A stretch of 32,000 nucleotides of DNA, from NCBI RefSeq assembly GCF_000020025.1, contig NC_010628.1, positions 1,710,001 through 1,742,000 on the forward strand, given 5' to 3'. This DNA is from Nostoc punctiforme PCC 73102. Lineage in GTDB: Bacteria; Cyanobacteriota; Cyanobacteriia; Cyanobacteriales; Nostocaceae. The position numbers and the translations under genes are program-made. Each line of letters starts with the position of its first letter. The stretch's first letter is position 1. The notes below the pieces were generated by a model. That model was not told the DNA's origin, did not search any database, and saw only the letters and a list, made by a program, of their open reading frames with translations. Below, piece after piece: positions 581 through 23,615 of the stretch.

Positions 581-615
581 AATAGGCAATAGGCAATAGG
601 CAATAGGCAATAGGC
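581..615. repeat. Heptamer tandem repeat AATAGGC x5 (STRR-like) in the sheath-sheath intergenic spacer
   Basis: Five perfect contiguous copies were read directly. A second heptamer run, AATGACA AATGACA AATGCCA (649-669), contains the ATG of the next gene. Confidence 0.95.
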
Positions 616-663
616 AAATTTTCTTACTCCCCACTGAAAATAATTACGAATGACAAATGACAA

Positions 664-1791: not shown

Positions 1792-2232
1792 ATGCCTACG
1801 ATTTCTAACCCCCATGACCCATACAGTGGTTATAATTTCTGGGTGGAATGGGATGGTATTGTTCATGCTGGGTTTCGTGAATGTAGTGGTTTGACAGCGA
1901 CTCGCAAAGCAGGAACTTATCGAGAAGGAACAGATAAAGCATTAAGCCAACGTCAAATTCCCGGTCTTAATACTTATGGTAACATTACCCTAAAACGAGG
2001 AGTTACCGATAACAAAGAACTGTGGGAATGGCATAAAAAATTACAGAATGGTGAGACAGATAGACGTAATCTTTCCATTATTTTGGCTAACGATCAAGGA
2101 GAAGAAAAAATTCGCTGGAATTTAGAAAATAGCTGGCCTACTATTTGGAATGCTCCAGGTTTTAATGCCACCTCAGACGAGGTAGCGATAGAAACTCTCG
2201 AACTAGTTCATGAAGGTATTACCATTGGTTAA
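1792..2232 (+). CDS. CIS/phage tail tube protein (T4 gp19-like family), paralogue 1
   Basis: AGGAGG lies 8-13 nt upstream. N-terminal DPYSGYNFWVEWDGI..AGFRECSGL and C-terminal IETLELVHEGI are the typical conserved ends of gp19-type tube proteins. It sits immediately after the sheath. Confidence 0.85.
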   Translation: MPTISNPHDPYSGYNFWVEWDGIVHAGFRECSGLTATRKAGTYREGTDKALSQRQIPGLNTYGNITLKRGVTDNKELWEWHKKLQNGETDRRNLSIILANDQGEEKIRWNLENSWPTIWNAPGFNATSDEVAIETLELVHEGITIG

Positions 2233-2252: not shown

Positions 2253-2615
2253 ATGCAGCAAACTGAATTTCCTTTTATCTTGCCTCAAGGATATCTCGAC
2301 TCGGAAGGTAACACTCACCGCGAAGGCATTATGCGCCTTTCAACTGCCTATGATGAAATTGCCCCCATCCGAGATCCAAGAGTGCAGAAAAATCCTGGTT
2401 ATTTGGTGATTATTCTCTTAGCAAGGACGATAGTCCAACTAGGAACATTAGACCAAATTAATACCAAAATAATTGAGGGTTTATTTTCAGGAGATTTAGT
2501 CTATTTACAGGATTTTTATCAAAGGATTAACCAAAACGGTCATAGTCGTTTGCGGGTAGCGTGTCCCCATTGTGATGGAGAGTTTGAAGTGGAAACTATT
2601 CCCGTGGGGGAGTAG
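2253..2615 (+). CDS. Small conserved CIS protein with C-terminal CPHC zinc-ribbon-like motif; positional equivalent of a tail assembly chaperone
   Basis: The 120-aa ORF lies between the tube and the tape-measure candidate, as P2 gpE does. It ends ...ACPHCDGEFEVETIPVGE. The functional call rests on position only. Confidence 0.55.
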   Translation: MQQTEFPFILPQGYLDSEGNTHREGIMRLSTAYDEIAPIRDPRVQKNPGYLVIILLARTIVQLGTLDQINTKIIEGLFSGDLVYLQDFYQRINQNGHSRLRVACPHCDGEFEVETIPVGE

Positions 2616-2767
2616 TTTGCTACCCCACAGAACGACTGCTGGAGGAGGTAGCTTACCTTGCCTACAATTTTCATTGGTCTTACGAACAGATTATGACAAT
2701 GGAACACCGAGAACGTCAACAGTGGGTAACGCAGGTAGCACAAATTAATCAGCGACTTAGCGATTGA
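2588..2767 (+). CDS. Conserved mini-ORF (YPTERLLEEVAYLAYNFHWSYEQIMTMEHRERQQWVTQVAQINQRLSD) with no in-frame ATG/GTG/TTG before its conserved part
   Basis: The frame (nt mod 3 = 2) is open from the TGA at 2585-2587 to the TGA at 2765-2767. It is not in the ORF track. From memory, the peptide resembles a roughly 50-aa family found in CIS loci (annotated DUF6760 in some databases); this needs an HMM check. It overlaps the end of the 2253-2615 ORF and the TTG at 2764 of the next gene. Confidence 0.6.
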   Translation, partial: SGNYSRGGVVCYPTERLLEEVAYLAYNFHWSYEQIMTMEHRERQQWVTQVAQINQRLSD

Positions 2768-3261
2768 GCAAGAAAGAAATGAATCCCAAACTTATCGCAC
2801 TAAATGCAGCTTTAGCCGCAGGTTCAACAGCCAGTTTATTGGGACACGATCCCTACATGGCTTATAACTTTGCTGTTGAAATTGGAGGAGTTGTTGTTGG
2901 TGGTTTTAGTGAAGCTAGCGGTTTAAGTAGTGAAATTGAGTTGGAATCTTATCAGGAAGGAGGCTTAAACGATTTTGTTCATAAATTTCCCAAACATACT
3001 ACTTATCCAAATTTGGTTTTGAGTCGAGGATTAGTAAATATTGATTTGTTTTATATTTGGTATAAAGCAACTAGCCAAGGGTGGATTGAGCAGTTAAACG
3101 GTACGATTCTTTTACTTAATAGTCAGCAAATTCCGGTAATGTGGTGGACGTTTAAAAAAGCATATCCCGTCAAGTGGGAAGGGCCAACCTTTAATGCTAG
3201 TAGTGACGCAATTGCTGTAGAAAAAATTGAACTAGTGCATCAAGGAATTTCTAAGTTATAG
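2764..3261 (+). CDS. CIS/phage tail tube protein (gp19-like), paralogue 2, with an N-terminal extension of about 30 aa
   Basis: DPYMAYNFAVEIGG..GGFSEASGL and VEKIELVHQGI parallel paralogue 1. The start is either the TTG at 2764 or the ATG at 2779 (same frame). Confidence 0.85.
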   Translation: MSKKEMNPKLIALNAALAAGSTASLLGHDPYMAYNFAVEIGGVVVGGFSEASGLSSEIELESYQEGGLNDFVHKFPKHTTYPNLVLSRGLVNIDLFYIWYKATSQGWIEQLNGTILLLNSQQIPVMWWTFKKAYPVKWEGPTFNASSDAIAVEKIELVHQGISKL

Positions 3262-3302: not shown

Positions 3303-3364
3303 AAGGAGGTTCTTATAGTTGTACTCAGCTTTGTAAAAATTGCATAGGAGTTTTGTGTTGCATC

Positions 3365-4909
3365 ATGGCAAATTTATCCAATTGGCAAGATTCACTGGAT
3401 GAGGCGTTAGTAAATCGCCTGCATCGTCCCTTACGTCAACCGGGAATGATGAAAATGGCGATGGGTCAGCGCATTATTAATCGTTGCGATCGCTTTTTAA
3501 ATCGTTTACCTCTTTTGACTCAACAAATGCAACGTTGGGGTAATACTAATAGCCTATCATCTGAGTCTATCCCCATTGTTTATGCACAGCCTGTTTCATT
3601 AGTAAAAGAACAAGAAGTAGAGAATAGAGTATATAATTTACCAACTGTCTCCCAAGTTGATCCTTCGGCTAATATAATTCAAAGAAAATTAGATTCTTCT
3701 CAATCTTTAGCAACTAAAACAGTTAATACTACTATCCCTGTCCAAAATATAACAGAATTCTCAAGCTCGGATGTTGCGGATGAAACAACCAAATCTTTAA
3801 CTTTAGAAACACAAATTAATAAAACCTCTATATCTTCATCTGAGCTTCCAGTAGTTTCGCCAAAACCAATTGCTGAACAATTACCAAAAACAGCAAAAGT
3901 GACGTTAGGAGATTCCACAGGCTCGCAAGCATCTTTGCCTAATAGTGCTGAATCAAATCTCAATCATTCATCTCAACCGATTCTAGATACCACTTCTATC
4001 TTTTCATCGGAAATTCCCGTAGTTTTGCCACAACCCATCGCTGAAGAATTCCCAAAAACAGCAGAAATGGCGTTAGCAGATTTGATAGGCTCGCAAACAT
4101 CTCTACCTAATAGCGCTGAATCAAATCTCAATCATGCATCTCAACCGATTGTAGATGCCAGTTTTATGTTTTCATCAGAAATTCCCGTAGTTTCGCCACA
4201 ACCCATCGCTGATCAATCGCCAGATACAGGAGAAATACAGTCATCACAAGAATTTCCCAGCTTTACTGATACAACCCTACCTATTATTCAAGCAAAACTT
4301 CAGAATTATTCCAGACCACAGCCATCTCTTCCTATTGTTAATAATTTAAATAATTTAGCTAACCAACAAACGCAAGTAGATAATTACGCAGGCAATTTAA
4401 GCTTAATCAAGCACGAACCAAAACAACTTCCTATCGTCACGGCTCAACCTCTAAGTCCTCAAGCTAATTTGCCTCAGCAGGAAATATCATTTGCTATCAA
4501 TTCGCTAACTTCTCAAAATAAATCTGGAAAGTTCCTCAACACACAACCTATTACTGTTTCTACCTCACAAATTAATCAAACTAATCACAAGCAAAATATA
4601 TCTTCCCTTCCCCTTGTCTCTGTAACTTCTACAAGTAACCCATCCTTAAAAGCTCAATCTTTGCCTTTAGCCGGAGCTAAAACTACCCCATCATCAAGGA
4701 GTAATAGCCAGCAATCAAACCTATCAAACCACAATTTAATATCAAATATTGATTCTTCATCACCTCCTATAACTTTTGCCAGTCCTGTATCACCAATAGC
4801 AACTCAATCCAATATTGACGTTGATGCTATAGCGAGTCAAGTTGAACGCAAACTAATGCGACGGTTAGTCATTGAAAGTGAACGCAGAGGGAAAAATCGA
4901 TGGCACTAG
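3365..4909 (+). CDS. Low-complexity S/P/Q-rich protein; candidate tail tape-measure / length-determining protein
   Basis: Its position (after tube/chaperone-like genes, before LysM and gpD-like) equals P2 gpT. It has a basic helical C-terminus, DVDAIASQVERKLMRRLVIESERRGKNRW. The ATG at 3365 is preferred over the track's TTG at 3353, because AGGAG at 3346-3350 is too close to 3353. Confidence 0.5.
   Translation: MANLSNWQDSLDEALVNRLHRPLRQPGMMKMAMGQRIINRCDRFLNRLPLLTQQMQRWGNTNSLSSESIPIVYAQPVSLVKEQEVENRVYNLPTVSQVDPSANIIQRKLDSSQSLATKTVNTTIPVQNITEFSSSDVADETTKSLTLETQINKTSISSSELPVVSPKPIAEQLPKTAKVTLGDSTGSQASLPNSAESNLNHSSQPILDTTSIFSSEIPVVLPQPIAEEFPKTAEMALADLIGSQTSLPNSAESNLNHASQPIVDASFMFSSEIPVVSPQPIADQSPDTGEIQSSQEFPSFTDTTLPIIQAKLQNYSRPQPSLPIVNNLNNLANQQTQVDNYAGNLSLIKHEPKQLPIVTAQPLSPQANLPQQEISFAINSLTSQNKSGKFLNTQPITVSTSQINQTNHKQNISSLPLVSVTSTSNPSLKAQSLPLAGAKTTPSSRSNSQQSNLSNHNLISNIDSSSPPITFASPVSPIATQSNIDVDAIASQVERKLMRRLVIESERRGKNRWH
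3827..4235 (+). repeat. In-frame 168-bp (56-aa) tandem repeat, about 2.4 copies, inside the tape-measure candidate
   Basis: Units start at 3827, 3995 and 4163. Compare SSSELPVVSPKPIAEQLPKTA...SLPNSAESNLNHSSQPI with FSSEIPVVLPQPIAEEFPKTA...SLPNSAESNLNHASQPI and with FSSEIPVVSPQPIADQSPDTG. Confidence 0.9.
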
Positions 4910-16429: not shown

Positions 16430-16621
16430 CATCCCTCTTGATTAAAACATAGGAAATTATGTGCTTTTACCCATAATTTAGCCAAAATTGTGAACCAAGA
16501 TCAGCGATCGCACGGCGGTAAATAGAGTTTTATGACATCTTGAGATGCAAAGATGTAAATAACTTTATCCTTTTCAACAAGGATATGTTAAGACAATACC
16601 AGATAATTGCACTACCAGGTT

Positions 16622-17971
16622 ATGCCCATAGATTTACGGGAATTTTATCAGGCTAGCGATCCCAGCAGAACTCTATTTGTCAACAATAGCTCTGATGGCA
16701 AGTATTACATAGATTTTTCCTCAGTCCGAGGTGGTGATATTCTTGGCAAGCTGAAGCAGAAAATTACCTTTTTTAAGCCCAATGAACCCACCTGCACTTT
16801 ATTTACTGGGCATATTGGTTGTGGTAAATCGACAGAACTATTACGATTACAGGCAGAACTGGAAAAATTAGGCTTCCATGTAGTTTATTTTGAGTCTAGT
16901 GACGACCTGGAAATGACCGATGTCGATATTGCTGATGTGCTGCTGGCGATCGCTCGTCGTGTGAGTCAAAGTTTAGATAAAATTATACTGGAGTCACCAA
17001 ACAAGTTTAATGAGTTGCTGCAAGGTGCTTGGAAGGTCTTAAACTCCGAGGTAACGGGAGTAAAAGTGAAGGTTCCCAATGTCGGCGATTTTGGTGTCAC
17101 CTCGGAAAAAGAAAAGTTGTCTCTGTCTGTGGGCATTGGTGAAATCACCGCCAAGATGAAAAATGACCCAACCCTGCGAGAAAAACTCAATCAGTATTTA
17201 GCACCGCAAAAAACTAAACTGCTGGAAGCGATTAATCAAGAATTATTGGAACCTGCGATCGCTAAACTCAAACAGCAGGGTAAAAATGGTCTGGTGGTAA
17301 TTGTCGATAATCTTGACCGCATAGATAATCGTGCCAAACCTTGGGGTCGTCCGCAGCAGGAATATCTATTTGTCGATCAAGGTGAGTTTTTGACTAAGCT
17401 GAATTGTCATCTCATCTACACCATGCCTTTATCGTTGAAGTTTTCCAATGATTACGGAATGCTGACTCAGCGTTTCCCAGAAGATCCCAAGGTTTTACCA
17501 ATGGTACCTGTACATTGGTCTGATGGCAGTCTTCATGCACAGGGAATGGCGCTCATGCAGCAGATGGTACTAGCAAGAGCTTTTCCTGACATGACACCAG
17601 AGGAGCGTTTAAATAAAGTTACCGAAATTTTTGATAGTGCTGCTAGCCTAGAACGGTTATGTCAAATGAGCGGTGGTCATGTGCGGGACGTGCTGAGGCT
17701 GCTAAATACCTGGATTATGGAAGAGATGAGTCTTCCCCTAACCCGTGACACCTTAGAGCAAGTTATTCGTTCTCGGCAGAATGAGATAATGTTGCCGATT
17801 TCTGAGGATGAGTGGCAATTGTTACGTCATGTCAAAGAAAAGAAAAAGGTGAGTGATGACCACGGATATCAAAAACTGATCCGCAGTCGATTTGTGTTTG
17901 AATATCGCGATTGCGGCGAGTCTTGGTTTGACGTTAATCCGGTTTTGGCTGAGGCGAAGGAGTTGCAATGA
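16622..17971 (+). CDS. P-loop NTPase (Orc1/Cdc6- or minimal-STAND-like ATPase), about 449 aa
   Basis: Walker A is GHIGCGKSTEL and Walker B is LVVIVDNLDRID, followed by a helical C-terminal region. The ATG at 16622 is preferred to the track's TTG at 16607. A ~190-nt gap separates it from the CIS operon. Confidence 0.75.
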   Translation: MPIDLREFYQASDPSRTLFVNNSSDGKYYIDFSSVRGGDILGKLKQKITFFKPNEPTCTLFTGHIGCGKSTELLRLQAELEKLGFHVVYFESSDDLEMTDVDIADVLLAIARRVSQSLDKIILESPNKFNELLQGAWKVLNSEVTGVKVKVPNVGDFGVTSEKEKLSLSVGIGEITAKMKNDPTLREKLNQYLAPQKTKLLEAINQELLEPAIAKLKQQGKNGLVVIVDNLDRIDNRAKPWGRPQQEYLFVDQGEFLTKLNCHLIYTMPLSLKFSNDYGMLTQRFPEDPKVLPMVPVHWSDGSLHAQGMALMQQMVLARAFPDMTPEERLNKVTEIFDSAASLERLCQMSGGHVRDVLRLLNTWIMEEMSLPLTRDTLEQVIRSRQNEIMLPISEDEWQLLRHVKEKKKVSDDHGYQKLIRSRFVFEYRDCGESWFDVNPVLAEAKELQ

Positions 17972-18113: not shown

Positions 18114-21100
18114 ATGACAGACTCGCAACCACTAGAAGATCGCCATGTAAACAGTGATGTCTACGACGGGCTACACCTACGCTCTCTGAAACAATTAGCT
18201 TGGGCGATTGAATCCTCTGTGGGACAGTTTAAGCTGATTTTGGCACGGTGTAATTATGCTAGCTTGCGCGATCGCTTAATCTCCAGATTGCAGGAAATTT
18301 GTCAAGTCGAAATTCGTGTCTTGGCGGTGCAGCAATCTAACAGAACTCTTTATACTGCGATTCAGGAAGAATTCGGCGAAGAGATACCAGCCTGTGTGAT
18401 GGTTGTGGGTTTGGAATCAGTGCAGAATTTGTCTGTGATGTTAACTTCTGCGAATCAGGTGCGGGAAGAGTTTCGCAAGAATTTTGCTTTTCCTTTAGTG
18501 TTGTGGATTGACGATGAAATCTACAAGCAACTAATACAGCTTGCACCAGATTTGGAAAGTTGGGCAACTATGAGAAATTTTGAGATATCAACACAAGAAT
18601 TAGTAGATTTTGTCACCGAAACGGCTAATCAATGGTTTAGTAATAACTTAAAACTTAGCTATAATGAATATTTAAAACTTAAAACTGAATTAGAAACCGC
18701 GCAAAGATATCTGCTGAGTGATAAGTACGTTGCTAATTTAGAGGTTGAGGCTAATTTAGTATCTTTATTAGGTTTTGTTAGCCAGATTAACGATATAAAT
18801 ATCGCGCTGGAAAATTATCAAAAAGCCCAGTCAATGTGGCAAAAGCTTAATAATATAAAAAGACAAAATAAAATATCTTATAATACTGCTTTTTGTTATA
18901 ATATTAAATGTTTTAGAAATCTAGATATTAATCATTACGATTGGCAAGCTAATCGTAAGTATGCCCAAGAATATATCAAGTTTCTTGTACAATCTCAACG
19001 TCCAGATTTAATCGCTGATTCAATCTTTAAATTTGGTTATGTACTGCGGGACTTAAAAGAGTGGCAATGTTTAAAACAACTAGCTGAAATAGCTTTAGAA
19101 ATACATAAAGCTAACAATCAGCCAGTAGATTTAGCAAAAGATTATGGTTTTTTAGCTGAGGCGGCGCTGGCTCAAGAATATTGGCTTGAGGCAAATCAAT
19201 TAATTGAGAAAGCTTTAGAAATTTTCTTGCCAGTAATTCATAGCTTGAAATCCAAAAATATACCAGGATATTTATCAGAGATAAACGACTTATTCGACTT
19301 CGCCGATTTATTGTTCATACCAAATGATTTTAGTCTCTATATGTTTATAAAAGCGCGTTCTTTATATCATTTAGGACAACCTCACAAAGCAATTACTATA
19401 TTAGAAGCTTCAATACCTATCAGTGTTCCAAATTGTAATTTAAAACTTTATTTGGATATTATCAGATTTTTGCAGCAGCTTTATTTTGAGCAGAAAGAAT
19501 ATCTCAAAGCATACAAAATCAAACAGCAACAGCGTTCCATTGAACAGCAATTTGGCTTGCGGGCTTTTATTGGTGCGGGTAGGTTAGAAGCTACAAAACA
19601 GGCATTTGTAGAGACATTACGCTCAAACTCTCCCCAAGGAAACATTGCCCCAGAAATTGCTGCATCTGGTCGCTTATTGGATATAGAACGTTTAATTGAA
19701 CGCATGGGTCGCCCTGATTATAAGTTGATAGTAATTCATGGGCAATCGGGTGTAGGCAAAAGTTCCCTGGTGAATGCGGGACTAGTGCCGGCTTTAAAGG
19801 ATAAAGCGATCGGTGTTCAAGATTATTTGCCGGTGGTAATGCGGGTTTATACTAACTGGGCGGAAGAATTGGGGAGGCTTTTGGGGAGAGATTTGGTTCG
19901 ACTTCGCTCACCAACCGAGGGATGGGGAGATAAGGGGGATGAGGGAGAGTTAGAAGGTCAACTTCCACCCTCAGAAGGTCAACATTCAGCCTCAGAAGGT
20001 CAACATTCAGCCTCAGAAGGTCAACATTCAGCCTCAGAAGGTCAAGTTTCAGCCTCAGAAGGTCAAGTTTCAGCCTCAGAAGGTCAAGTTTCAGCCTCAG
20101 AAGGTCAACTTCCACCCTCAGAAGGTCAACTTTCATCCTCAGAAGGTCAACTTTCATCCTCAGAAGGTCAACTTTCACCCTCAGAAGGTCAACTTCCACC
20201 CTCAGAAGGTCAACTTTCATCCTCAGAAGGTCAAGTTTCATCCTCAGAAGGTCAACTTCCACCCTCAGAAGGTCAACTTCCACCCTCAGAAGGTCAACTT
20301 TCATCCTTAGAACTCGGAACTACGCAATATTTGATATCCAGACTCAAAGAAAACGAACAGCGCAACCTCCGCACGGTGTTAATTTTCGATCAATTTGAGG
20401 AATTTTTCTTTGTTTACACCGAACCTGCACAAAGGAAGCAATTCTTTGAGTTTTTGGGAGAGTGTCTGAATGTTCTATCGGTGAAAGTTATCTTATCGCT
20501 GCGGGTAGATTACATCCATTACTTGCTGGAGTGCAATGATTTGTCCAGTCTCAAGATTATTGGCAATGACATTCTCAGTAATAATGTGCTTTACAAGTTG
20601 GGGAATTTCTCACCGACAGATACCAAGTCAATTATTCAGCGTTTAACTGAAAATACTAGTTTTTATTTAGAACCTGCCTTAGTTGAACAACTGGTGCTAG
20701 ATTTAGCCGGAGAATTGGGCGAAGTTCGTCCCATTGAGTTGCAAGTTGTGGGGGCGCAACTGCAAACGGAGAACATTACAACTCTGGCAGAATATCGGCA
20801 GCGTGGCACTAAGGACGAATTGGTTAAGCGTTATTTGGATGAAGTTGTTAATGATTGCGGCGTAGAAAATCAGCAAGCAGCAGACATATTACTGTATTTG
20901 CTGACTGATGAAAAAGGAACTCGCCCTTTAAAAACTCGCGCTGAGTTGGAACGCGATTTGCAGGGTTACTTCTCGGAGATCCCCCCAACCCCCCTTAAAA
21001 AGGGGGGCTTTATTCTTTCAACCCCCTTTTTAAGGGGGTCGCCGCAGGCGGGGGGATCGGAAGCTAGGGCGAAACAAGCTTCTGAAATCAATAAATTAGA

Positions 21101-23615
21101 TTTGATTTTAGAGATTTTTGTCCAATCCGGCTTAGTGGTTTTGCTACCAGAAAACCCCGCCGACCGTTATCAACTGGTACATGACTACATCGCTGCCTTT
21201 ATCCGCCAGCAACAGGAACCGAAGTTAAAGCAGGTAATGGCGGAACTGGAAAAGGAACGAAAAGAAAGAAAACTGAGTGAGGCGAAACTGAATAGCTTTC
21301 TCAAACGCGCCCTTTTTAGTACCGTGGCCGCAGGTTTAGGATTTGCTGGGTTAGCAGCAGCAACATTCCAGTGGGCAGTAGAGGCAAATGTTAATCAAAT
21401 TAGCGCCATCAATAATTCTTCGGAAGCCTTTGCTCTCTCTGAAAAATATCCAGATGCTTTAATAGCAGCCTTAAAAGCAGGTAGCAAACTCAAGCATACA
21501 CTTTGGGCACAGCACAGAAGCGATATCTTAATGCAAACTGTGGTAACTTTACAGCAAGCGGTTTACTTAAAGCCAAAGGAGAAGAAAGAAAATCGTGCCA
21601 TAGAAGTGAATACTTTAGAAGGTCATAGCGATTGGGTCAGTAGCGTCGCTTATAGCCCCAATGGATACCAGTTAGCTTCTGCTAGTGCTGATAAGACCAT
21701 CAAAATCTGGGATGTTAGCAGTGGTCAACTCCTCAAAACCCTGACTGGTCATAGCGATAGGATCAGAAGCATCGCCTATAGCCCTAATGGACAACAGTTA
21801 GTTTCTGCTAGTGCTGATAAGACCATCAAAATCTGGGATGTCAGTAGTGGTAAACTCCTCAAAACCCTGACTGGTCATACTAGTGCGGTCAGTAGCGTCG
21901 CCTACAACCCTAATGGACAACAGTTAGCTTCTGCTAGTGATGACAACACCATCAAAATCTGGGATATCAGTAGTGGTAAACTCCTCAAAACCCTGCCTGG
22001 TCATAGCAGTGTAGTCAATAGCGTCGCCTACAACCCTAATGGACAACAGTTAGCTTCTGCTAGTAATGATAAGACCATCAAAATCTGGGATATCAATAGT
22101 GGTAAACTCCTCAAATCCCTGACTGGTCATAGCAGTGAGGTCAATAGCGTCGCCTACAGCCCCAATGGACAACAGTTAGCTTCCGCTAGTTTTGACAACA
22201 CCATCAAAATCTGGGATATCAGTAGTGGTAAACTCCTTAAAACCCTTACTGGTCATAGCAATGTAGTCTTTAGCGTCGCTTACAGCCCCAATGGACAACA
22301 CTTAGCTTCTGCTAGTGCTGATAAGACAATCAAAATCTGGGATGTCAGCAGTGGTAAACCCCTCAAATCTCTGGCTGGTCATAGCAATGTAGTCTTTAGC
22401 GTCGCTTACAGCCCCAATGGACAACAGTTAGCTTCCGCTAGTGATGACAAAACCATCAAAGTCTGGGATATCAGCAATGGTAAACCCCTCGAATCCATGA
22501 CTGATCATAGCGATAGGGTCAATAGCGTCGTCTACAGCCCTAATGGACAACACTTAGCTTCCCCTAGTTATGACAAGACCATCAAAATCTGGAATGTCAG
22601 TAGTGGTAAACTCCTCAAAACCCTAACTGGTCATAGCAGTGAGGTCAATAGCGTCGCCTACAGTCCCAATGGACAACAATTAGCTTCCGCTAGTTGGGAC
22701 AAAACCATCAAAGTCTGGGATGTCAATAGTGGTAAACCCCTCAAGACCCTAATTGGTCATAGCAGTGTGGTCAATAGCGTCGCCTACAGTCCCAATGGAC
22801 AACAGTTAGCTTCCGCTAGTTTTGACAACACCATCAAAGTCTGGGATGTCAGTAGTGGTAAACTCCTCAAAACCCTAACTGGTCATAGCAATGCGGTCAG
22901 TAGCGTTGCCTACAGTCCCAATGGACAACAGTTAGCTTCCGCTAGTCTTGACAACACCATTAAAATCTGGGATGTCAGTAGTGCTAAACTCCTCAAAACT
23001 TTGACTGGTCATAGCGATGCGGTCAGTAGCGTCGCCTACAGTCCCAATGGACAACAGTTAGCTTCCGCTAGTGATGACAACACCATCAAAATCTGGGATG
23101 TCAGCAGTGGTAAACTCCTCAAATCCCTCTCTGGTCATAGCAATGCGGTCTATAGCATCGCCTACAGCCCCAATGGACAACAGTTAGCTTCTGCTAGTGC
23201 TGACAATACCATCAAAATCTGGGATGTTAGCAGTGGTAAACTCCTCAAATCCCTCTCTGGTCATAGCGATTGGGTCATGCGCGTCACCTACAACCCTAAT
23301 GGACAACAGTTAGCTTCTGCTAGTGTTGACAAAACAATAATTTTATGGGATTTGGATTTCGATAATTTATTACACAGTGGTTGCAATTTGCTAAATAATT
23401 ACTTGATTGGTCATCCAGAAGTGTTAGAAGAGTTGCAATCATGCCAAACTCCATCTCGTTTAGCGCAAGGTGCGACAACATTAGTCATCCAAGGTGAAAA
23501 GTTAGCGCGAAATGATGATATTAATGGCGCTGTTGAAAAGTTTGACAAAGCACAGCAGTGGGATAATAAATTAAAGTTTGATTCTCAGGCGAGAGCGAAA
23601 GAGTTGGCGAAGTAA
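18114..23615 (+). CDS. NLR-like STAND NTPase with 14 WD40 repeats (1833 aa)
   Basis: Walker A is [22 protein letters not shown] (nt ~19738-19800) and Walker B is [13 protein letters not shown] (~20370-20405). Further elements are the coiled coil [18 protein letters not shown], the hydrophobic helix [24 protein letters not shown], and 14 GHS...WD repeats. The N-terminal ~540 aa is a P-loop-less module ([12 protein letters not shown] / [10 protein letters not shown]) plus TPR-like helices. Confidence 0.9.
19950..20306 (+). repeat. 17 x 21-bp in-frame minisatellite encoding SEGQ(L/H/V)(P/S)(P/A/S) heptapeptides
   Basis: The period is exactly 21 bp from 19950 to 20306. The variant order is LPP, HSA x3, VSA x3, LPP, LSS x2, LSP, LPP, LSS, VSS, LPP x2, LSS. 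Confidence 0.97.
20978..21058. mobile_element. 81-bp nested-palindrome insert (MITE/small-dispersed-repeat-like) lying in frame within the STAND gene
   Basis: The termini GATCCCCCC (20978-20986) and GGGGGGATC (21050-21058) are inverted repeats. There are two internal perfect hairpins: CCCCCC-TTAAAAA-GGGGGG (20989-21007) and CCCCC-TTTTTAA-GGGGG (21022-21038). It translates as [27 protein letters not shown]. Confidence 0.6.
21621..23357 (+). repeat. 14 tandem 126-bp WD40 repeat units with very high nucleotide identity
   Basis: Units start every 126 nt from 21621 to 23259 (GGTCATAGC...). The consensus is [42 protein letters not shown]. Confidence 0.95.

What the first reader, a model, noticed from the sequence alone, without database searches (positions are those of the whole stretch)
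2588..2767. Conserved CIS mini-ORF with no start codon: candidate programmed frameshift or homopolymer error at the chaperone position
A 59-codon open frame that is absent from the ORF track encodes YPTERLLEEVAYLAYNFHWSYEQIMTMEHRERQQWVTQVAQINQRLSD. From memory, I recognise this as a short family recurrent in CIS loci. In its frame there is no ATG, GTG or TTG between the upstream TGA (2585-2587) and the conserved YPTERL. Three readings fit the sequence. (i) A -1 slip of the upstream 120-aa ORF on the G5 run at 2606-2610 (GTG GGG GAG TAG read as ..GGG GGA GTA GTT TGC TAC CCC..) would give a fusion of about 171 aa. (ii) Initiation at the TTG at 2617 followed by a +1 slip on the C4 run at 2623-2626. 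(iii) A one-base homopolymer assembly error or a recent inactivating indel. The location (after the tube, before the tape-measure candidate) is where P2 gpE/E+E' and lambda G/GT use a conserved -1 frameshift, so a recoding event here would have a functional precedent.
Basis: partly seen in the sequence, partly recalled or inferred. Interest (0 to 1): 0.65.

Follow-up and report, generated by a model that had tools for sequence, protein, structure and literature searches.

The report
Frameshifted chaperone gene in injection system
The start-less mini-gene is most likely the second half of a tail-assembly chaperone, reached when the ribosome slips back one base on a run of Gs; phages are known to do this, but here it is conserved in the contractile injection systems of many bacteria and some archaea, where I found no report of it.

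Summary
Window 2588-2767 is an open frame with no ATG/GTG/TTG before its conserved part, and it matches Pfam DUF6760 (E 9e-13).

It lies in the -1 frame of the 120-aa ORF at 2253-2615, which NCBI names "phage tail assembly protein" in orthologues.

I compared 85 loci from about ten bacterial phyla and from archaea:
- In 84, DUF6760 is -1 to the upstream ORF.
- In 77, a G GGG Gnn heptamer sits in a fixed register, while the 0-frame stop moves by up to 12 codons.
- 37 have no canonical start codon at all.
- A stable hairpin follows the heptamer after 4-7 nt. It shows compensatory changes and strong synonymous-codon bias.
- Firmicutes loci without the G-run carry T TTT TTG, T TTT TTA or A AAT TTT instead.

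One clade has the two parts fused in frame, and a second chaperone paralogue without the extension sits just upstream. DUF6760 is a remote homologue of the P2 E' extension (hhalign 86%).

Conclusion: this is a programmed -1 ribosomal frameshift that gives a 120-aa short form and a 171-aa long form, equivalent to P2 E/E+E'. Assembly error and the +1 reading are rejected.

I found no paper describing it for contractile injection systems. No experiment supports it yet.

The parts
2253..2615 (+). Short-form ORF of 120 aa, a gpE/gp41-like tail assembly chaperone. Its 0-frame ending is GTG GGG GAG TAG.
   Evidence: ORF list. Orthologues are named 'phage tail assembly protein' by NCBI. Weak phrog_508 'tail assembly chaperone' hit, E 0.0024. 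Family members give sub-threshold Gp41_Mu and Phage_TAC_7 hits. An AF2 model of a homologous fusion matches T4-like baseplate hub assembly proteins and a Mu-like tape measure chaperone in BFVD.
2606..2612 (+). Proposed slippery heptamer G GGG GAG, written in the 0-frame register X XXY YYZ. tRNA-Gly on GGG (2607-2609) can re-pair with GGG (2606-2608).
   Evidence: 77 of 85 loci have G GGG Gnn in this register. The Gly codon is GGG in 81/85 against 23% background, and the third base of the preceding codon is G in 83/85 against 32%. In-frame -1 stops lie as close as one codon upstream of the run.
2613..2615 (+). 0-frame stop codon TAG, which ends the short form.
   Evidence: Across loci the position of this stop varies from 0 to 12 codons after the heptamer, while the heptamer itself stays fixed.
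2615..2656 (+). Hairpin 3' of the heptamer. The core stem is 2619-2626 (GCUACCCC) paired with 2644-2645 and 2647-2652 (GG, GGUAGC). An inner stem pairs 2628-2630 with 2639-2641. The spacer from the heptamer to the core stem is 6 nt.
   Evidence: MFE -17.2 kcal/mol, z -3.31, with 0 of 200 shuffles folding as well. 74-76% of cells are paired against 32-54% for slid controls, with compensatory changes at alignment pairs 16-51 and 21-46. In 68% of 84 loci the 48-nt MFE is in the lowest 5% of the locus. GUA is used for 26 of 36 Val codons against 5% background, and CCC for 31 of 36 Pro codons against 26%, in loci with GC >= 60%.
2609..2767 (+). -1 frame extension: GVVC linker, then the DUF6760 / P2 E'-like domain (YPTERL...QRLSD, 2621-2764), then stop TGA at 2765-2767.
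   Evidence: PF20546 at E 8.9e-13. Phage_P2_GpE (PF06528) sub-threshold in 28 of 75 members, window E 0.016. PF06528 maps to the E' part of P2 E+E'. hhalign probability 86%, E 4.8e-6.
2253..2767 (+). Predicted long form, join(2253..2609,2609..2767), 171 aa, with junction ...ETIPVG-GVVCYPTER...
   Evidence: Conceptual translation. A homologue with a G8 run is a single ORF with junction PVGGVVGYP (P0288). In-frame fusion clade: P0132, P0136, P0282-P0286.
1792..2232 (+). Tube protein gene (gp19 family) immediately upstream (context).
   Evidence: PF06841 at E 1e-43. Closest solved structures are the AlgoCIS and tCIS tube proteins.
2779..3261 (+). Second tube paralogue immediately downstream (context).
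   Evidence: PF06841 at E 2e-38.
3353..4909 (+). 518-aa repeat-containing ORF. It is the candidate tape measure protein, the presumed client of the chaperone pair (inferred, not shown).
   Evidence: No Pfam hit even at E<=5. A 168-nt tandem repeat lies at 3827-4217. Orthologues vary in length from 378 to 508 aa. It sits between the tube genes and the LysM tube initiator.

Best explanation
Genes 2253-2615 and 2588-2767 form one recoded gene. Most ribosomes translate the 120-aa tail assembly chaperone and stop at TAG 2613-2615. A fraction slip back one nucleotide on G GGG GAG (2606-2612). The likely event is that tRNA-Gly re-pairs from GGG 2607-2609 to GGG 2606-2608, helped by the hairpin that starts 6 nt downstream (core stem 2619-2652). 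These ribosomes continue in the -1 frame to TGA 2765-2767 and make a 171-aa protein: the chaperone plus a C-terminal DUF6760 domain.

By homology with P2 gpE/gpE+E', Mu gp41/42 and lambda G/GT, I infer the function. The short and long forms would together coat and deliver the tape measure protein (candidate: ORF 3353-4909). The extension would dock the complex to tube subunits so that the tube polymerises to the right length. The chaperones would then be discarded.

Shown computationally:
- the frame arrangement;
- the absence of a start codon;
- conservation of the slippery run and of the hairpin;
- natural in-frame fusions;
- remote homology of both halves to the P2 pair.

Inferred only: that slippage actually occurs, its efficiency, which tRNA slips, and what the two products bind.
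For: 1. Frame and register. In 84 of 85 loci DUF6760 is -1 to the upstream ORF of at least 79 codons. The loci come from Cyanobacteria, Actinomycetota, Chloroflexota, Acidobacteriota, Planctomycetota, Myxococcota, Proteobacteria, Desulfobacterota, Bacillota and methanogenic or methanotrophic archaea. There is no intergenic spacer except in L081. The offset between the 0-frame stop and the Tyr codon takes five values (+5, +2, -10, -19, -31 nt), while the G-run stays fixed, so the -1 frame always reads G-G-x-x-x-Y-P.

2. No start codon. 37 of 85 loci have no ATG/GTG/TTG in the open -1 frame. 19 more have only NTG triplets created by the Cys codons of the CxxC motif, 17 and 20 codons upstream. 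Of the 29 with a nearby start, 27 are [A/G]TGA overlaps with a TGA stop. PGAP had to use ATT in one Nostoc and CTG in another.

3. Selection at synonymous sites of the 0 frame. The Gly codon is GGG in 81/85 against 23% background. The preceding third base is G in 83/85 against 32%, although that amino acid varies (V, A, M, L, S, P, Q).

4. Different slippery sequences at the same junction. Bacillota loci that lack the G-run have T TTT TTG (L079), T TTT TTA (L084) or A AAT TTT (L086), and the -1 frame is open from there.

5. Downstream hairpin. In the window it folds at -17.2 kcal/mol, z -3.3. 68% of loci are in the lowest 5% of their own background. 74-76% of cells are paired against 32-54% for slid controls, with compensatory pairs. 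In GC-rich loci GUA is 72% of Val codons at the pairing site against 5% background, and CCC is 86% of Pro codons against 26%. Streptomyces changes YP/EV to YA/EI and re-forms an 8-bp stem, CGUACGCG/CGCGUACG. The loci without a G-run also lack the hairpin.

6. Natural fusions. Seven clusters of 150-160-aa in-frame chaperone+DUF6760 proteins occur in CIS loci. In the two loci checked, a second chaperone paralogue without the extension sits directly upstream (34-45% identity, E 5e-25 and 2e-27). The short and long forms are therefore encoded by two genes where there is no frameshift.

7. Homology.
- DUF6760 against Phage_P2_GpE: 28 of 75 members hit, and hhalign gives 86% with the FHW(x15)W motif aligned. 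PF06528 covers residues 104-139 of P2 E+E', which is the part encoded in the -1 frame.
- The N-terminal part gives sub-threshold Gp41_Mu and Phage_TAC_7 hits.
- BFVD fold matches have probability 0.99-1.0.
Against: - There is no experimental evidence: no proteomics, Ribo-seq or reporter assay.
- G GGG GAR is not a canonical X XXY YYZ heptamer. After a tandem slip, tRNA-Glu would face GGA with a G.U pair in the middle position. Only 26 of 85 loci have the canonical G GGG GGA or G GGG GGG.
- 29 of 85 loci do have a nearby start codon. One locus (L081) encodes DUF6760 as a stand-alone gene with its own Shine-Dalgarno sequence and TTG start, so a free DUF6760 protein can evidently work.
- The hairpin is built from codons of conserved residues (G/C-Y-P and E-E-V-A), so part of its conservation is protein-driven.
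- RNAalifold with default settings did not recover the hairpin as the consensus.
- Two Chloroflexota loci have the G-run but no hairpin.
- The 80 fetched loci are the best tblastn matches out of at least 599, so they are biased towards relatives of the window.
- Homology to the P2 and Mu families is below the curated thresholds.
Confidence: 0.8

Rival explanations
1. DUF6760 is a separate small protein. Ribosomes terminating at the upstream stop re-initiate, or initiate de novo, a few codons before YP. The G-run acts as a Shine-Dalgarno-like element, and the start is a non-canonical codon where no ATG/GTG exists (GUA or GUU in the window, AUU in Nostoc UIC 10890).
For: GGGGG can pair with the anti-SD CCUCC. 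29 of 85 loci have ATG/GTG/TTG within 4 codons of YP. L081 shows a stand-alone DUF6760 gene with a proper SD and TTG start. Database entries and PGAP annotate it as a separate gene.
Against: - The distance from the G-run to the putative start is 1-4 nt, too short for an SD by established E. coli spacing rules (my own knowledge).
- 56 of 85 loci have no nearby canonical start.
- GUA and GUU are not recognised initiation codons.
- Nearby starts track the use of TGA as the stop codon: 27 of 29.
- This reading does not explain T TTT TTG, T TTT TTA or A AAT TTT in Bacillota, the hairpin at the spacing typical of frameshift stimulators, or the in-frame fusion clade with a separate short paralogue.
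- The P2 E' homologue is known to be made only as a fusion (P2 record annotation).
Confidence: 0.1
2. The same fusion protein is made, but by transcriptional slippage. RNA polymerase adds one extra G in the G-run, and the edited mRNA is read straight through.
For: The shift site is a homopolymer of 5-8 G. One extra G gives exactly the observed in-frame variant (the G8 locus L094/L095, P0288). The protein product would be identical, so the comparative data on frames do not separate the two mechanisms.
Against: - Known bacterial transcriptional slippage sites are mostly A or T runs of at least 7-9 nt (my own knowledge). Here G5 is the commonest length, as in the window.
- A conserved hairpin 4-7 nt downstream is the signature of ribosomal frameshifting, not of polymerase slippage.
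- The Bacillota sites A AAT TTT and T TTT TTA are heptamers of the ribosomal type.
Confidence: 0.06
3. The arrangement is an artefact or decay: a one-base homopolymer assembly error, or a recent inactivating indel in a gene that is normally fused or normally has its own start.
For: Homopolymer runs are error-prone. A G8 variant that fuses the frames exists.
Against: - The identical GGGGGAGTAG junction occurs in several independent Nostocales genomes, including a complete chromosome.
- The same -1 architecture is present in 84 of 85 loci across phyla.
- The DUF6760 frame stays intact and highly conserved: 24 invariant columns in the cyanobacterial set.
Confidence: 0.02

Closest known systems
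Bacteriophage P2 gpE / gpE+E' (conserved -1 frameshift in the tail assembly chaperone gene)
   Same: - Two overlapping ORFs lie downstream of the tube gene of a contractile tail, and the second is in the -1 frame with no start of its own.
- The result is a short form plus a long form that share an N-terminus.
- The N-terminal part is related to Phage_TAC_7 / Gp41_Mu (sub-threshold).
- The extension is related to PF06528, which covers the E' part of P2, with the shared motif FHW-x15-W.
- Bacillota members even use P2's own heptamer, T TTT TTG.
   Different: - The host element is a chromosomal contractile injection system, not a phage: tblastn of the fusion against 50,697 phage records finds nothing.
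- The usual slippery site is G GGG GAR or G GGG GGN, not T TTT TTG.
- The short form carries an extra C-terminal CxxC hairpin-like tail.
- A second tube gene separates the pair from the tape-measure candidate.
- A conserved coding-region hairpin follows the site.
- Sequence similarity is below the Pfam thresholds.
Phage lambda gpG / gpGT and the general tail assembly chaperone frameshift of long-tailed phages (Xu, Hendrix and Duda 2004; cited from my own knowledge)
   Same: - The same logic of evidence applies: conserved gene position, a -1 overlap, a slippery sequence that differs between lineages while the arrangement is kept, and no start for the second ORF.
- The proposed function is also the same: the short form binds the tape measure, and the extension of the long form recruits tube subunits.
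   Different: No detectable sequence similarity to G or T. Lambda uses G GGA AAG and needs no strong downstream structure (my own knowledge). Here a hairpin appears to be selected.
Pfam DUF6760 (PF20546), annotated as a family of unknown function
   Same: The mini-ORF is a bona fide member, scoring 48.6 bits against a cut-off of 27.
   Different: Pfam and NCBI treat it as an independent small protein. The evidence here says it is normally the C-terminal, frameshift-encoded domain of the neighbouring chaperone.
Cis6 / Afp6 / Pvc6 'spike plug' of tCIS, AFP and PVC (a protein of about 50 aa)
   Same: It is a very small protein encoded next to the tube genes of a contractile injection system (PMC8894136).
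   Different: There is no detectable homology. A DUF6760 profile search of all PDB chains, which include the tCIS structure 7b5h, gives no hit at E<=10. The window's locus belongs to a different CIS lineage from Anabaena tCIS: its tube matches All3324 only at E 2e-22.

Membership tests
Tail assembly chaperone pair with programmed -1 frameshift (P2 E/E+E', Mu gp41/42, lambda G/GT) | Position in the tail module: after the tube (major tail) gene and before the tape measure gene. | tested here: inconclusive
   The pair lies directly after tube gene 1792-2232. It is followed by a second tube gene and then by the 518-aa repeat-containing ORF 3353-4909. That ORF fits a tape measure by position, tandem repeat and length variation, but it has no family match.
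Tail assembly chaperone pair with programmed -1 frameshift (P2 E/E+E', Mu gp41/42, lambda G/GT) | Two overlapping ORFs, the second in the -1 frame and without its own initiation signals. | tested here: met
   In the window there is no ATG/GTG/TTG before YPTERL and the frame offset is -1. 84 of 85 loci are -1. 37 have no start and 19 have only incidental far-upstream NTG triplets.
Tail assembly chaperone pair with programmed -1 frameshift (P2 E/E+E', Mu gp41/42, lambda G/GT) | A slippery sequence lies in the overlap. It is conserved in position but may differ in sequence between lineages. | tested here: met
   G GGG Gnn occurs in 77 of 85 loci. Of these, 26 are the canonical G GGG GGA or G GGG GGG, and 48 are the near-canonical G GGG GAA or G GGG GAG. 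Bacillota loci have T TTT TTG, T TTT TTA or A AAT TTT.
Tail assembly chaperone pair with programmed -1 frameshift (P2 E/E+E', Mu gp41/42, lambda G/GT) | Sequence or fold homology of the two parts to known chaperone (E/gp41) and extension (E') families. | tested here: inconclusive
   All matches are below the curated cut-offs, but they are consistent:
- Phage_TAC_7 in 7 of 51 members (best E 2.3e-4) and Gp41_Mu in 8 of 51;
- Phage_P2_GpE in 28 of 75 DUF6760 members (best E 0.0027);
- hhalign against P2 E' at 86%;
- BFVD fold hits to T4-like hub assembly proteins (E 5.5e-6) and a Mu-like tape measure chaperone (probability 0.99).
PDB has no significant fold hit. YqbN (3klu) ranks fifth with probability 0.18.
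Tail assembly chaperone pair with programmed -1 frameshift (P2 E/E+E', Mu gp41/42, lambda G/GT) | Both the short and the long product are made, and both are needed for tail assembly. | not testable with these tools
   There is only indirect support. Loci with an in-frame fusion gene also carry a separate short paralogue directly upstream.
Tail assembly chaperone pair with programmed -1 frameshift (P2 E/E+E', Mu gp41/42, lambda G/GT) | The products bind the tape measure and tube proteins and are absent from the mature particle. | not testable with these tools
   [quoted passage not shown] I did not verify that sco4251 is the orthologue.
Canonical -1 PRF cassette (slippery heptamer, 5-9 nt spacer, downstream RNA structure) | A stable downstream structure at the correct spacing, under selection. 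| tested here: met
   The spacer is 6 nt and the hairpin folds at -17.2 kcal/mol, z -3.3. It is enriched in 68% of loci. Compensatory pairs and slid controls support it, as does synonymous-codon bias. There is no Rfam match.
Pfam DUF6760 (PF20546) | Score above the curated gathering threshold. | tested here: met
   48.6 bits against a cut-off of 27, E 8.9e-13.
Cis6 / Afp6 spike plug | Sequence similarity to the solved Cis6 chain of tCIS (7b5h) or to its homologues. | tested here: not met
   The profile of 75 DUF6760 sequences finds no CIS chain among all PDB chains at E<=10. The 171-aa fusion also finds none.

The most novel reading that the evidence does not exclude
This is a previously undescribed cellular recoding event, conserved across both prokaryotic domains. 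It is a programmed -1 frameshift on a G-run (mostly the non-canonical G GGG GAR) plus a coding-region hairpin, kept in contractile injection systems of about ten bacterial phyla and of Methanoperedens and Methanosarcinales archaea.

The hairpin's pairing needs appear to have shaped the protein's own signature: YP pairs with EEVA, and Streptomyces switches to YA with EIA when the stem re-registers.

If true, DUF6760 becomes the E'-like extension of a chaperone. These injection systems would then build their tubes with a phage-type short/long chaperone pair that the structural literature on them has not listed.
Probability: 0.65. Interest if true: 0.65.

Novelty: new member of a known kind. Interest (0 to 1): 0.6.

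Why it matters
1. It assigns a function and a mode of expression to a widespread domain of unknown function. DUF6760 has 440 representative clusters and at least 599 genomic loci.

2. It explains a systematic annotation defect. Gene callers give truncated proteins, proteins with out-of-frame N-terminal extensions, or ATT and CTG starts.

3. It adds a tape-measure chaperone pair to the parts list of a large lineage of contractile injection systems, including the Streptomyces, cyanobacterial and archaeal ones. The papers I could search list the neighbouring gene as 'unknown function' and mention neither a chaperone nor a frameshift.

4. It has a practical consequence. These systems are being re-engineered as protein-delivery devices. 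Codon optimisation, or cloning the ORFs separately, would destroy the G-run and the hairpin, and with them the long form. That could explain failed heterologous assembly.

5. For the recoding field, it supplies many independent examples of a G-rich slippery site with a co-evolving hairpin, including archaeal ones.

Tried and rejected
- NCBIfam scan of the 120-aa ORF, the mini-ORF and the fusion: no hit.
- PDB sequence searches with the fusion and with a DUF6760 profile: nothing relevant. The idea that DUF6760 is the 50-aa Cis6 spike plug of tCIS was therefore dropped.
- tblastn of the fusion against 50,697 phage genomes: no match.
- AlphaFold2 of the 120-aa ORF with a shallow cyanobacterial alignment gave pLDDT 47 and was unusable. 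It was replaced by a model of the homologous 177-aa fusion P0288 with a more diverse alignment (pLDDT 85.5).
- Foldseek against PDB: no significant hit.
- MAFFT misaligned the short DUF6760 sequences onto the N-terminus in alignment A3, so A3 was not used.
- RNAalifold with default settings proposed a different, weak consensus of -1.65 kcal/mol and did not recover the hairpin. I specified the hairpin by hand from single-sequence folds and tested it with pair counts and slid controls.
- Rfam: no family. Promoter and terminator scan: nothing on the + strand between the genes.
- Reading (ii), TTG 2617 plus a +1 slip on CCCC: rejected because the TTG is not conserved.
- Reading (iii), assembly error: rejected because the arrangement recurs in independent genomes.
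- P0288 (a G8 run giving one ORF) was not counted as an independent natural fusion, because a one-base homopolymer difference could be an error.
- Pfam scan of the tape-measure candidate at E<=5: nothing.
Full report
**1. The observation**

The frame 2588-2764 is open for 59 codons. It lies between TGA 2585-2587 and TGA 2765-2767 and contains no ATG, GTG or TTG before the conserved YPTERL. The first canonical start is the ATG at 2693. The frame matches Pfam DUF6760 (PF20546) well above threshold: E 8.9e-13, 48.6 bits against a cut-off of 27.

The frame is -1 relative to the 120-aa ORF at 2253-2615, which ends GTG GGG GAG TAG.

The surrounding genes form a complete contractile injection system (CIS) locus:
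- two sheath genes;
- a gp19-type tube gene (1792-2232);
- the ORF pair under study;
- a second tube gene (2779-3261);
- a 518-aa repeat-containing ORF;
- a CIS_tube/LysM tube initiator;
- GPD, a gp5 OB-domain gene, gp25, Baseplate_J, P2_I and CIS_spike_tip.

By tube-protein similarity, the closest solved systems are AlgoCIS and the Anabaena tCIS, but only distantly.

**2. It is not an error**

Close orthologues have the same start-less junction. These are Nostoc sp. UIC 10890, the complete chromosome of Nostoc sp. TCL26-01, Richelia, and further Nostoc and Prochloraceae genomes. All read ...GGGGGAGTA(G/A)TTTGCTACCCC.

NCBI's pipeline coped by calling an ATT start in one genome and a CTG start, which removes nine conserved residues, in another. 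Pseudanabaena has GTG, but only because its 0-frame stop is TGA (GAGTGA).

**3. The family-wide pattern**

A HMMER search of 1.84 billion cluster representatives found 440 DUF6760 proteins. Their called N-termini are chaotic. Some start just before YP. Many are truncated inside the domain. Many carry 16-25 extra residues that end in a recurrent GG[IVA]xxYP.

I then fetched DNA for 80 loci: the best tblastn matches out of at least 599 pattern matches in one genome per species. They come from Cyanobacteria, Actinomycetota (including many Streptomyces), Chloroflexota, Acidobacteriota, Planctomycetota, Myxococcota, Desulfobacterota, Proteobacteria, Bacillota and archaea (Methanoperedens, Methanosarcinales).

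Together with the window and four earlier loci, this gives 85 loci:
- DUF6760 is in the -1 frame of the upstream ORF in 84. L075, which the script scored as +1, is also -1 by inspection. The real exception is L054, which begins too close to its contig end for the upstream ORF to be scored.
- 77 have a G GGG Gnn heptamer in one fixed register, so the -1 frame reads G-G-x-x-x-Y-P. The counts are GGGGGAA 32, GGGGGAG 16, GGGGGGG 15, GGGGGGA 11 and GGGGGCA 3.
- The 0-frame stop sits 0, 1, 5, 8 or 12 codons after the heptamer.
- In several loci an in-frame -1 stop lies only one or two codons upstream of the G-run, which confines any frame change to the run itself.
- At sites that are synonymous in the 0 frame, the Gly codon is GGG in 81/85 against 23% background. 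The third base of the preceding codon is G in 83/85 against 32%, although that residue varies (V, A, M, L, S, P, Q).

**4. Start codons**

- 37 loci have no canonical start anywhere in the open -1 frame.
- 19 have only NTG triplets 17 and 20 codons upstream. These are generated by the two Cys codons of the CxxC motif in the 0 frame.
- 29 have a start within four codons of YP, and 27 of those are [A/G]TGA overlaps with a TGA stop. Of the 42 loci in which a TAG or TAA stop lies within one codon of the heptamer, 40 have none.

The nearby starts therefore look like by-products of stop-codon choice. They also lie only 1-4 nt from the G-run, which is too close for the run to serve as a Shine-Dalgarno element (established spacing rules; my own knowledge).

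**5. Alternative slippery sites**

Three Bacillota loci lack the G-run. A few codons upstream they carry classical heptamers instead: T TTT TTG (L079; this is P2's own site), T TTT TTA (L084) and A AAT TTT (L086). In each, the -1 frame is open from that point.

One locus (L081, Oscillospiraceae) differs. It has a 23-nt spacer, a GAGGTGA Shine-Dalgarno sequence and a TTG start, with no slippery run and no hairpin. There, DUF6760 is a stand-alone gene.

**6. The downstream hairpin**

In the window a hairpin begins six nucleotides after the heptamer. GCUACCCC (2619-2626) pairs with GG (2644-2645) and GGUAGC (2647-2652), and there is a small inner stem. It folds at -17.2 kcal/mol, z -3.3, and none of 200 shuffles folds as well.

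Across 84 loci, the 48 nt after the heptamer fall in the lowest 5% of all same-size windows of their own locus in 68% of cases (mean z -2.1). The loci without a slippery G-run also lack the hairpin.

I tested the hairpin on an ungapped 83-sequence alignment. 74-76% of cells are paired, against 32-54% when the 3' partners are slid. Compensatory changes occur at pair 16-51 (GC 38, CG 13) and pair 21-46 (CG 61, UA 4, UG 4).

The stem is made of the codons for (G/C)-Y-P and E-E-V-A, so protein conservation contributes to its conservation. Even so, in the 50 loci with GC >= 60% the Val codon is GUA in 26 of 36 cases against 5% background. GUA is the codon that pairs with the Tyr codon UAC. The Pro codon is CCC in 31 of 36 cases against 26%.

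Streptomyces has YA and EIA in place of YP and EVA, and forms a re-registered 8-bp stem, CGUACGCG/CGCGUACG.

RNAalifold with default settings did not recover this hairpin. I derived it from single-sequence folds, which is a caveat for the slid-control comparison.

**7. Natural fusions**

Seven protein clusters of 150-160 aa are in-frame fusions of the chaperone-like N-terminus with DUF6760, and they lack the CxxC tail (P0132, P0136, P0282-P0286). The two founding members, P0132 and P0136, are 44% identical over their whole length, including the linker, so they are real genes rather than errors.

They sit in CIS loci (L091, L093). The gene immediately upstream is a paralogue of the chaperone part without the extension: 34% identity, E 5e-25 in L091, and 45% identity, E 2e-27 in L093. 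Those loci therefore encode a short form and a long form as two genes, which is what a frameshift would deliver from one gene.

A relative in the same clade (L089) is unfused. It is -1 and reads GAG GGG GGA ATT TTT TTT at the junction.

Another homologue (P0288) is a single ORF through a G8 run. Its junction, PVGGVVGYP, mirrors the PVGGVVCYP predicted for the window. Because one G more or less could be an error, I do not count it as independent evidence.

**8. What the two parts are**

NCBI names the 120-aa family 'phage tail assembly protein'. Members give recurrent sub-threshold hits to Gp41_Mu (8 of 51) and Phage_TAC_7, described as 'E, or 41 or 14' (7 of 51, best E 2.3e-4). The window protein hits phrog_508 'tail assembly chaperone' at E 0.0024.

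DUF6760 members hit Phage_P2_GpE (PF06528) in 28 of 75 cases (best E 0.0027; window E 0.016). No other family exceeds two members.

I translated P2 E+E' from NC_001895. PF10109 covers residues 7-85, and PF06528 covers residues 104-139, which is the part encoded after the annotated -1 shift. hhalign of the DUF6760 profile against P2 E' gives 86% probability and E 4.8e-6, aligning FHW-x15-W in both.

An AlphaFold2 model of the homologous fusion P0288 (pLDDT 85.5, with a low-confidence linker exactly at the junction) has no significant PDB neighbour. YqbN, which I recall as the XkdN-type chaperone of a PBSX-like element, ranks fifth with probability 0.18. In BFVD the model matches T4-like baseplate hub assembly proteins (E 5.5e-6) and a Mu-like 'tape measure chaperone' (probability 0.99).

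**9. Mechanism proposed**

Most ribosomes finish the 120-aa chaperone at TAG 2613-2615. A fraction pause on the hairpin with G GGG GAG in the decoding centre. tRNA-Gly slips from GGG 2607-2609 to GGG 2606-2608, and translation continues with GGA GUA GUU UGC UAC CCC.... The product is the 171-aa long form, join(2253..2609,2609..2767).

Which site slips (P, A or both) is not determined. G GGG GGA and G GGG GGG (26 loci) allow a canonical tandem slip. G GGG GAR (48 loci, including the window) would leave tRNA-Glu with a central G.U pair, so a single-tRNA slip is more likely there.

By analogy with lambda G/GT and P2 E/E+E' (my own knowledge of those systems), the two forms would chaperone the tape measure protein and hand it to tube subunits. 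The 518-aa ORF at 3353-4909 is the candidate client. The grounds are its position, its 168-nt tandem repeat and its variable length in orthologues, but it has no family match.

**10. Rivals**

- **Separate initiation, with the G-run acting as a Shine-Dalgarno element (about 0.10).** This is weakened by the missing starts, the spacing, the Bacillota heptamers, the hairpin, and the fusion clade with its short paralogue.
- **Transcriptional slippage on the G-run (about 0.06).** It would give the same protein and cannot be excluded from DNA alone. G5 is short for this mechanism, and the hairpin and the A/T-type heptamers point to the ribosome.
- **Assembly error or decay (about 0.02).** Excluded by recurrence in independent genomes.

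**11. Novelty**

The kind of event is classical: the conserved tail-assembly-chaperone frameshift of long-tailed phages. I found no description of it in contractile injection systems.
- No paper in the searchable library contains 'DUF6760'.
- None combines 'contractile injection' with 'slippery'.
- Papers combining it with 'ribosomal frameshift' or 'tail assembly chaperone' are about phages.
- The tCIS paper and one of the two Streptomyces CIS papers mention no chaperone. The other Streptomyces paper and a 2023 review each use the word once, for a pilus-assembly and a tail-fibre chaperone respectively. None of the four mentions a frameshift, and neither term occurs in the hot-spring CIS paper.
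- One Streptomyces paper calls the neighbouring gene sco4251 a protein of unknown function.

The library lacks most subscription journals, so prior description cannot be ruled out. I classify the finding as a new member of a known kind. Its distinctive features are a G-run slippery site, a co-evolving coding hairpin, and presence in both bacteria and archaea.

Noticed in passing
window 581-617: A perfect heptamer tandem repeat, (AATAGGC) x 5.3, lies in the spacer between the two sheath genes. It looks like a cyanobacterial short tandem repeat. Several spurious minus-strand ORFs run across it.
   Followed up: no
window 3353-4909 (repeat at 3827-4217): The 518-aa ORF after the second tube gene contains a 168-nt tandem repeat (2.3 copies, 85% identity). 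It has no Pfam match even at E<=5. Its orthologues are 378-508 aa long. It is a plausible length-variable tape measure, but unproven.
   Followed up: partly
L001 3001-3153; L002 3001-3129: NCBI's pipeline annotates the same DUF6760 gene with an ATT start in Nostoc sp. UIC 10890. In Nostoc sp. TCL26-01 it uses a CTG start that removes nine conserved residues. Across databases the family's N-termini are inconsistent: truncated, or extended by out-of-frame sequence.
   Followed up: yes
L081 about 2440-2510 (Oscillospiraceae MAG): In this locus DUF6760 is a stand-alone gene. It has a 23-nt spacer after the chaperone's stop, a GAGGTGA Shine-Dalgarno sequence and a TTG start, with no slippery run and no hairpin. 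It is the only such case among the 85 loci.
   Followed up: partly
L094 and L095, about 3340-3380: A G8 run (GTG GGG GGG GTA GTG GGC TAC CCC) puts the chaperone and DUF6760 in one 177-aa ORF (P0288). It appears in a JGI assembly and in a Logan assembly. It could be a real homopolymer-length variant, which would hint at phase variation, or a shared sequencing error.
   Followed up: partly
L089, L091, L093 (metagenomic CIS loci): Loci of the fusion clade carry three tube paralogues in a row and two chaperone paralogues. L089 has both a G6 run and a T8 run at its -1 junction (GAG GGG GGA ATT TTT TTT).
   Followed up: partly
L028 and L059 (Chloroflexota), junction: These two loci have a G7 run and a GTGA overlap, but the segment after the run folds worse than the locus background (z +1.2 and +1.7). 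They are exceptions to the hairpin rule and remain unexplained.
   Followed up: no
window 2555-2600 (C-terminus of the 120-aa ORF): The short form ends in a conserved CPxC-x-x-F-E-V-E segment that gives weak zinc-ribbon-type hits in several members. This tail is missing from the in-frame fusion clade. It contains only one CxxC, so metal binding would need a partner or a dimer.
   Followed up: no
window 18114-23615: A 1833-aa ORF lies downstream of the CIS core and of an ATPase-like gene (16607-17971). It was not examined and could be a fibre or an effector.
   Followed up: no
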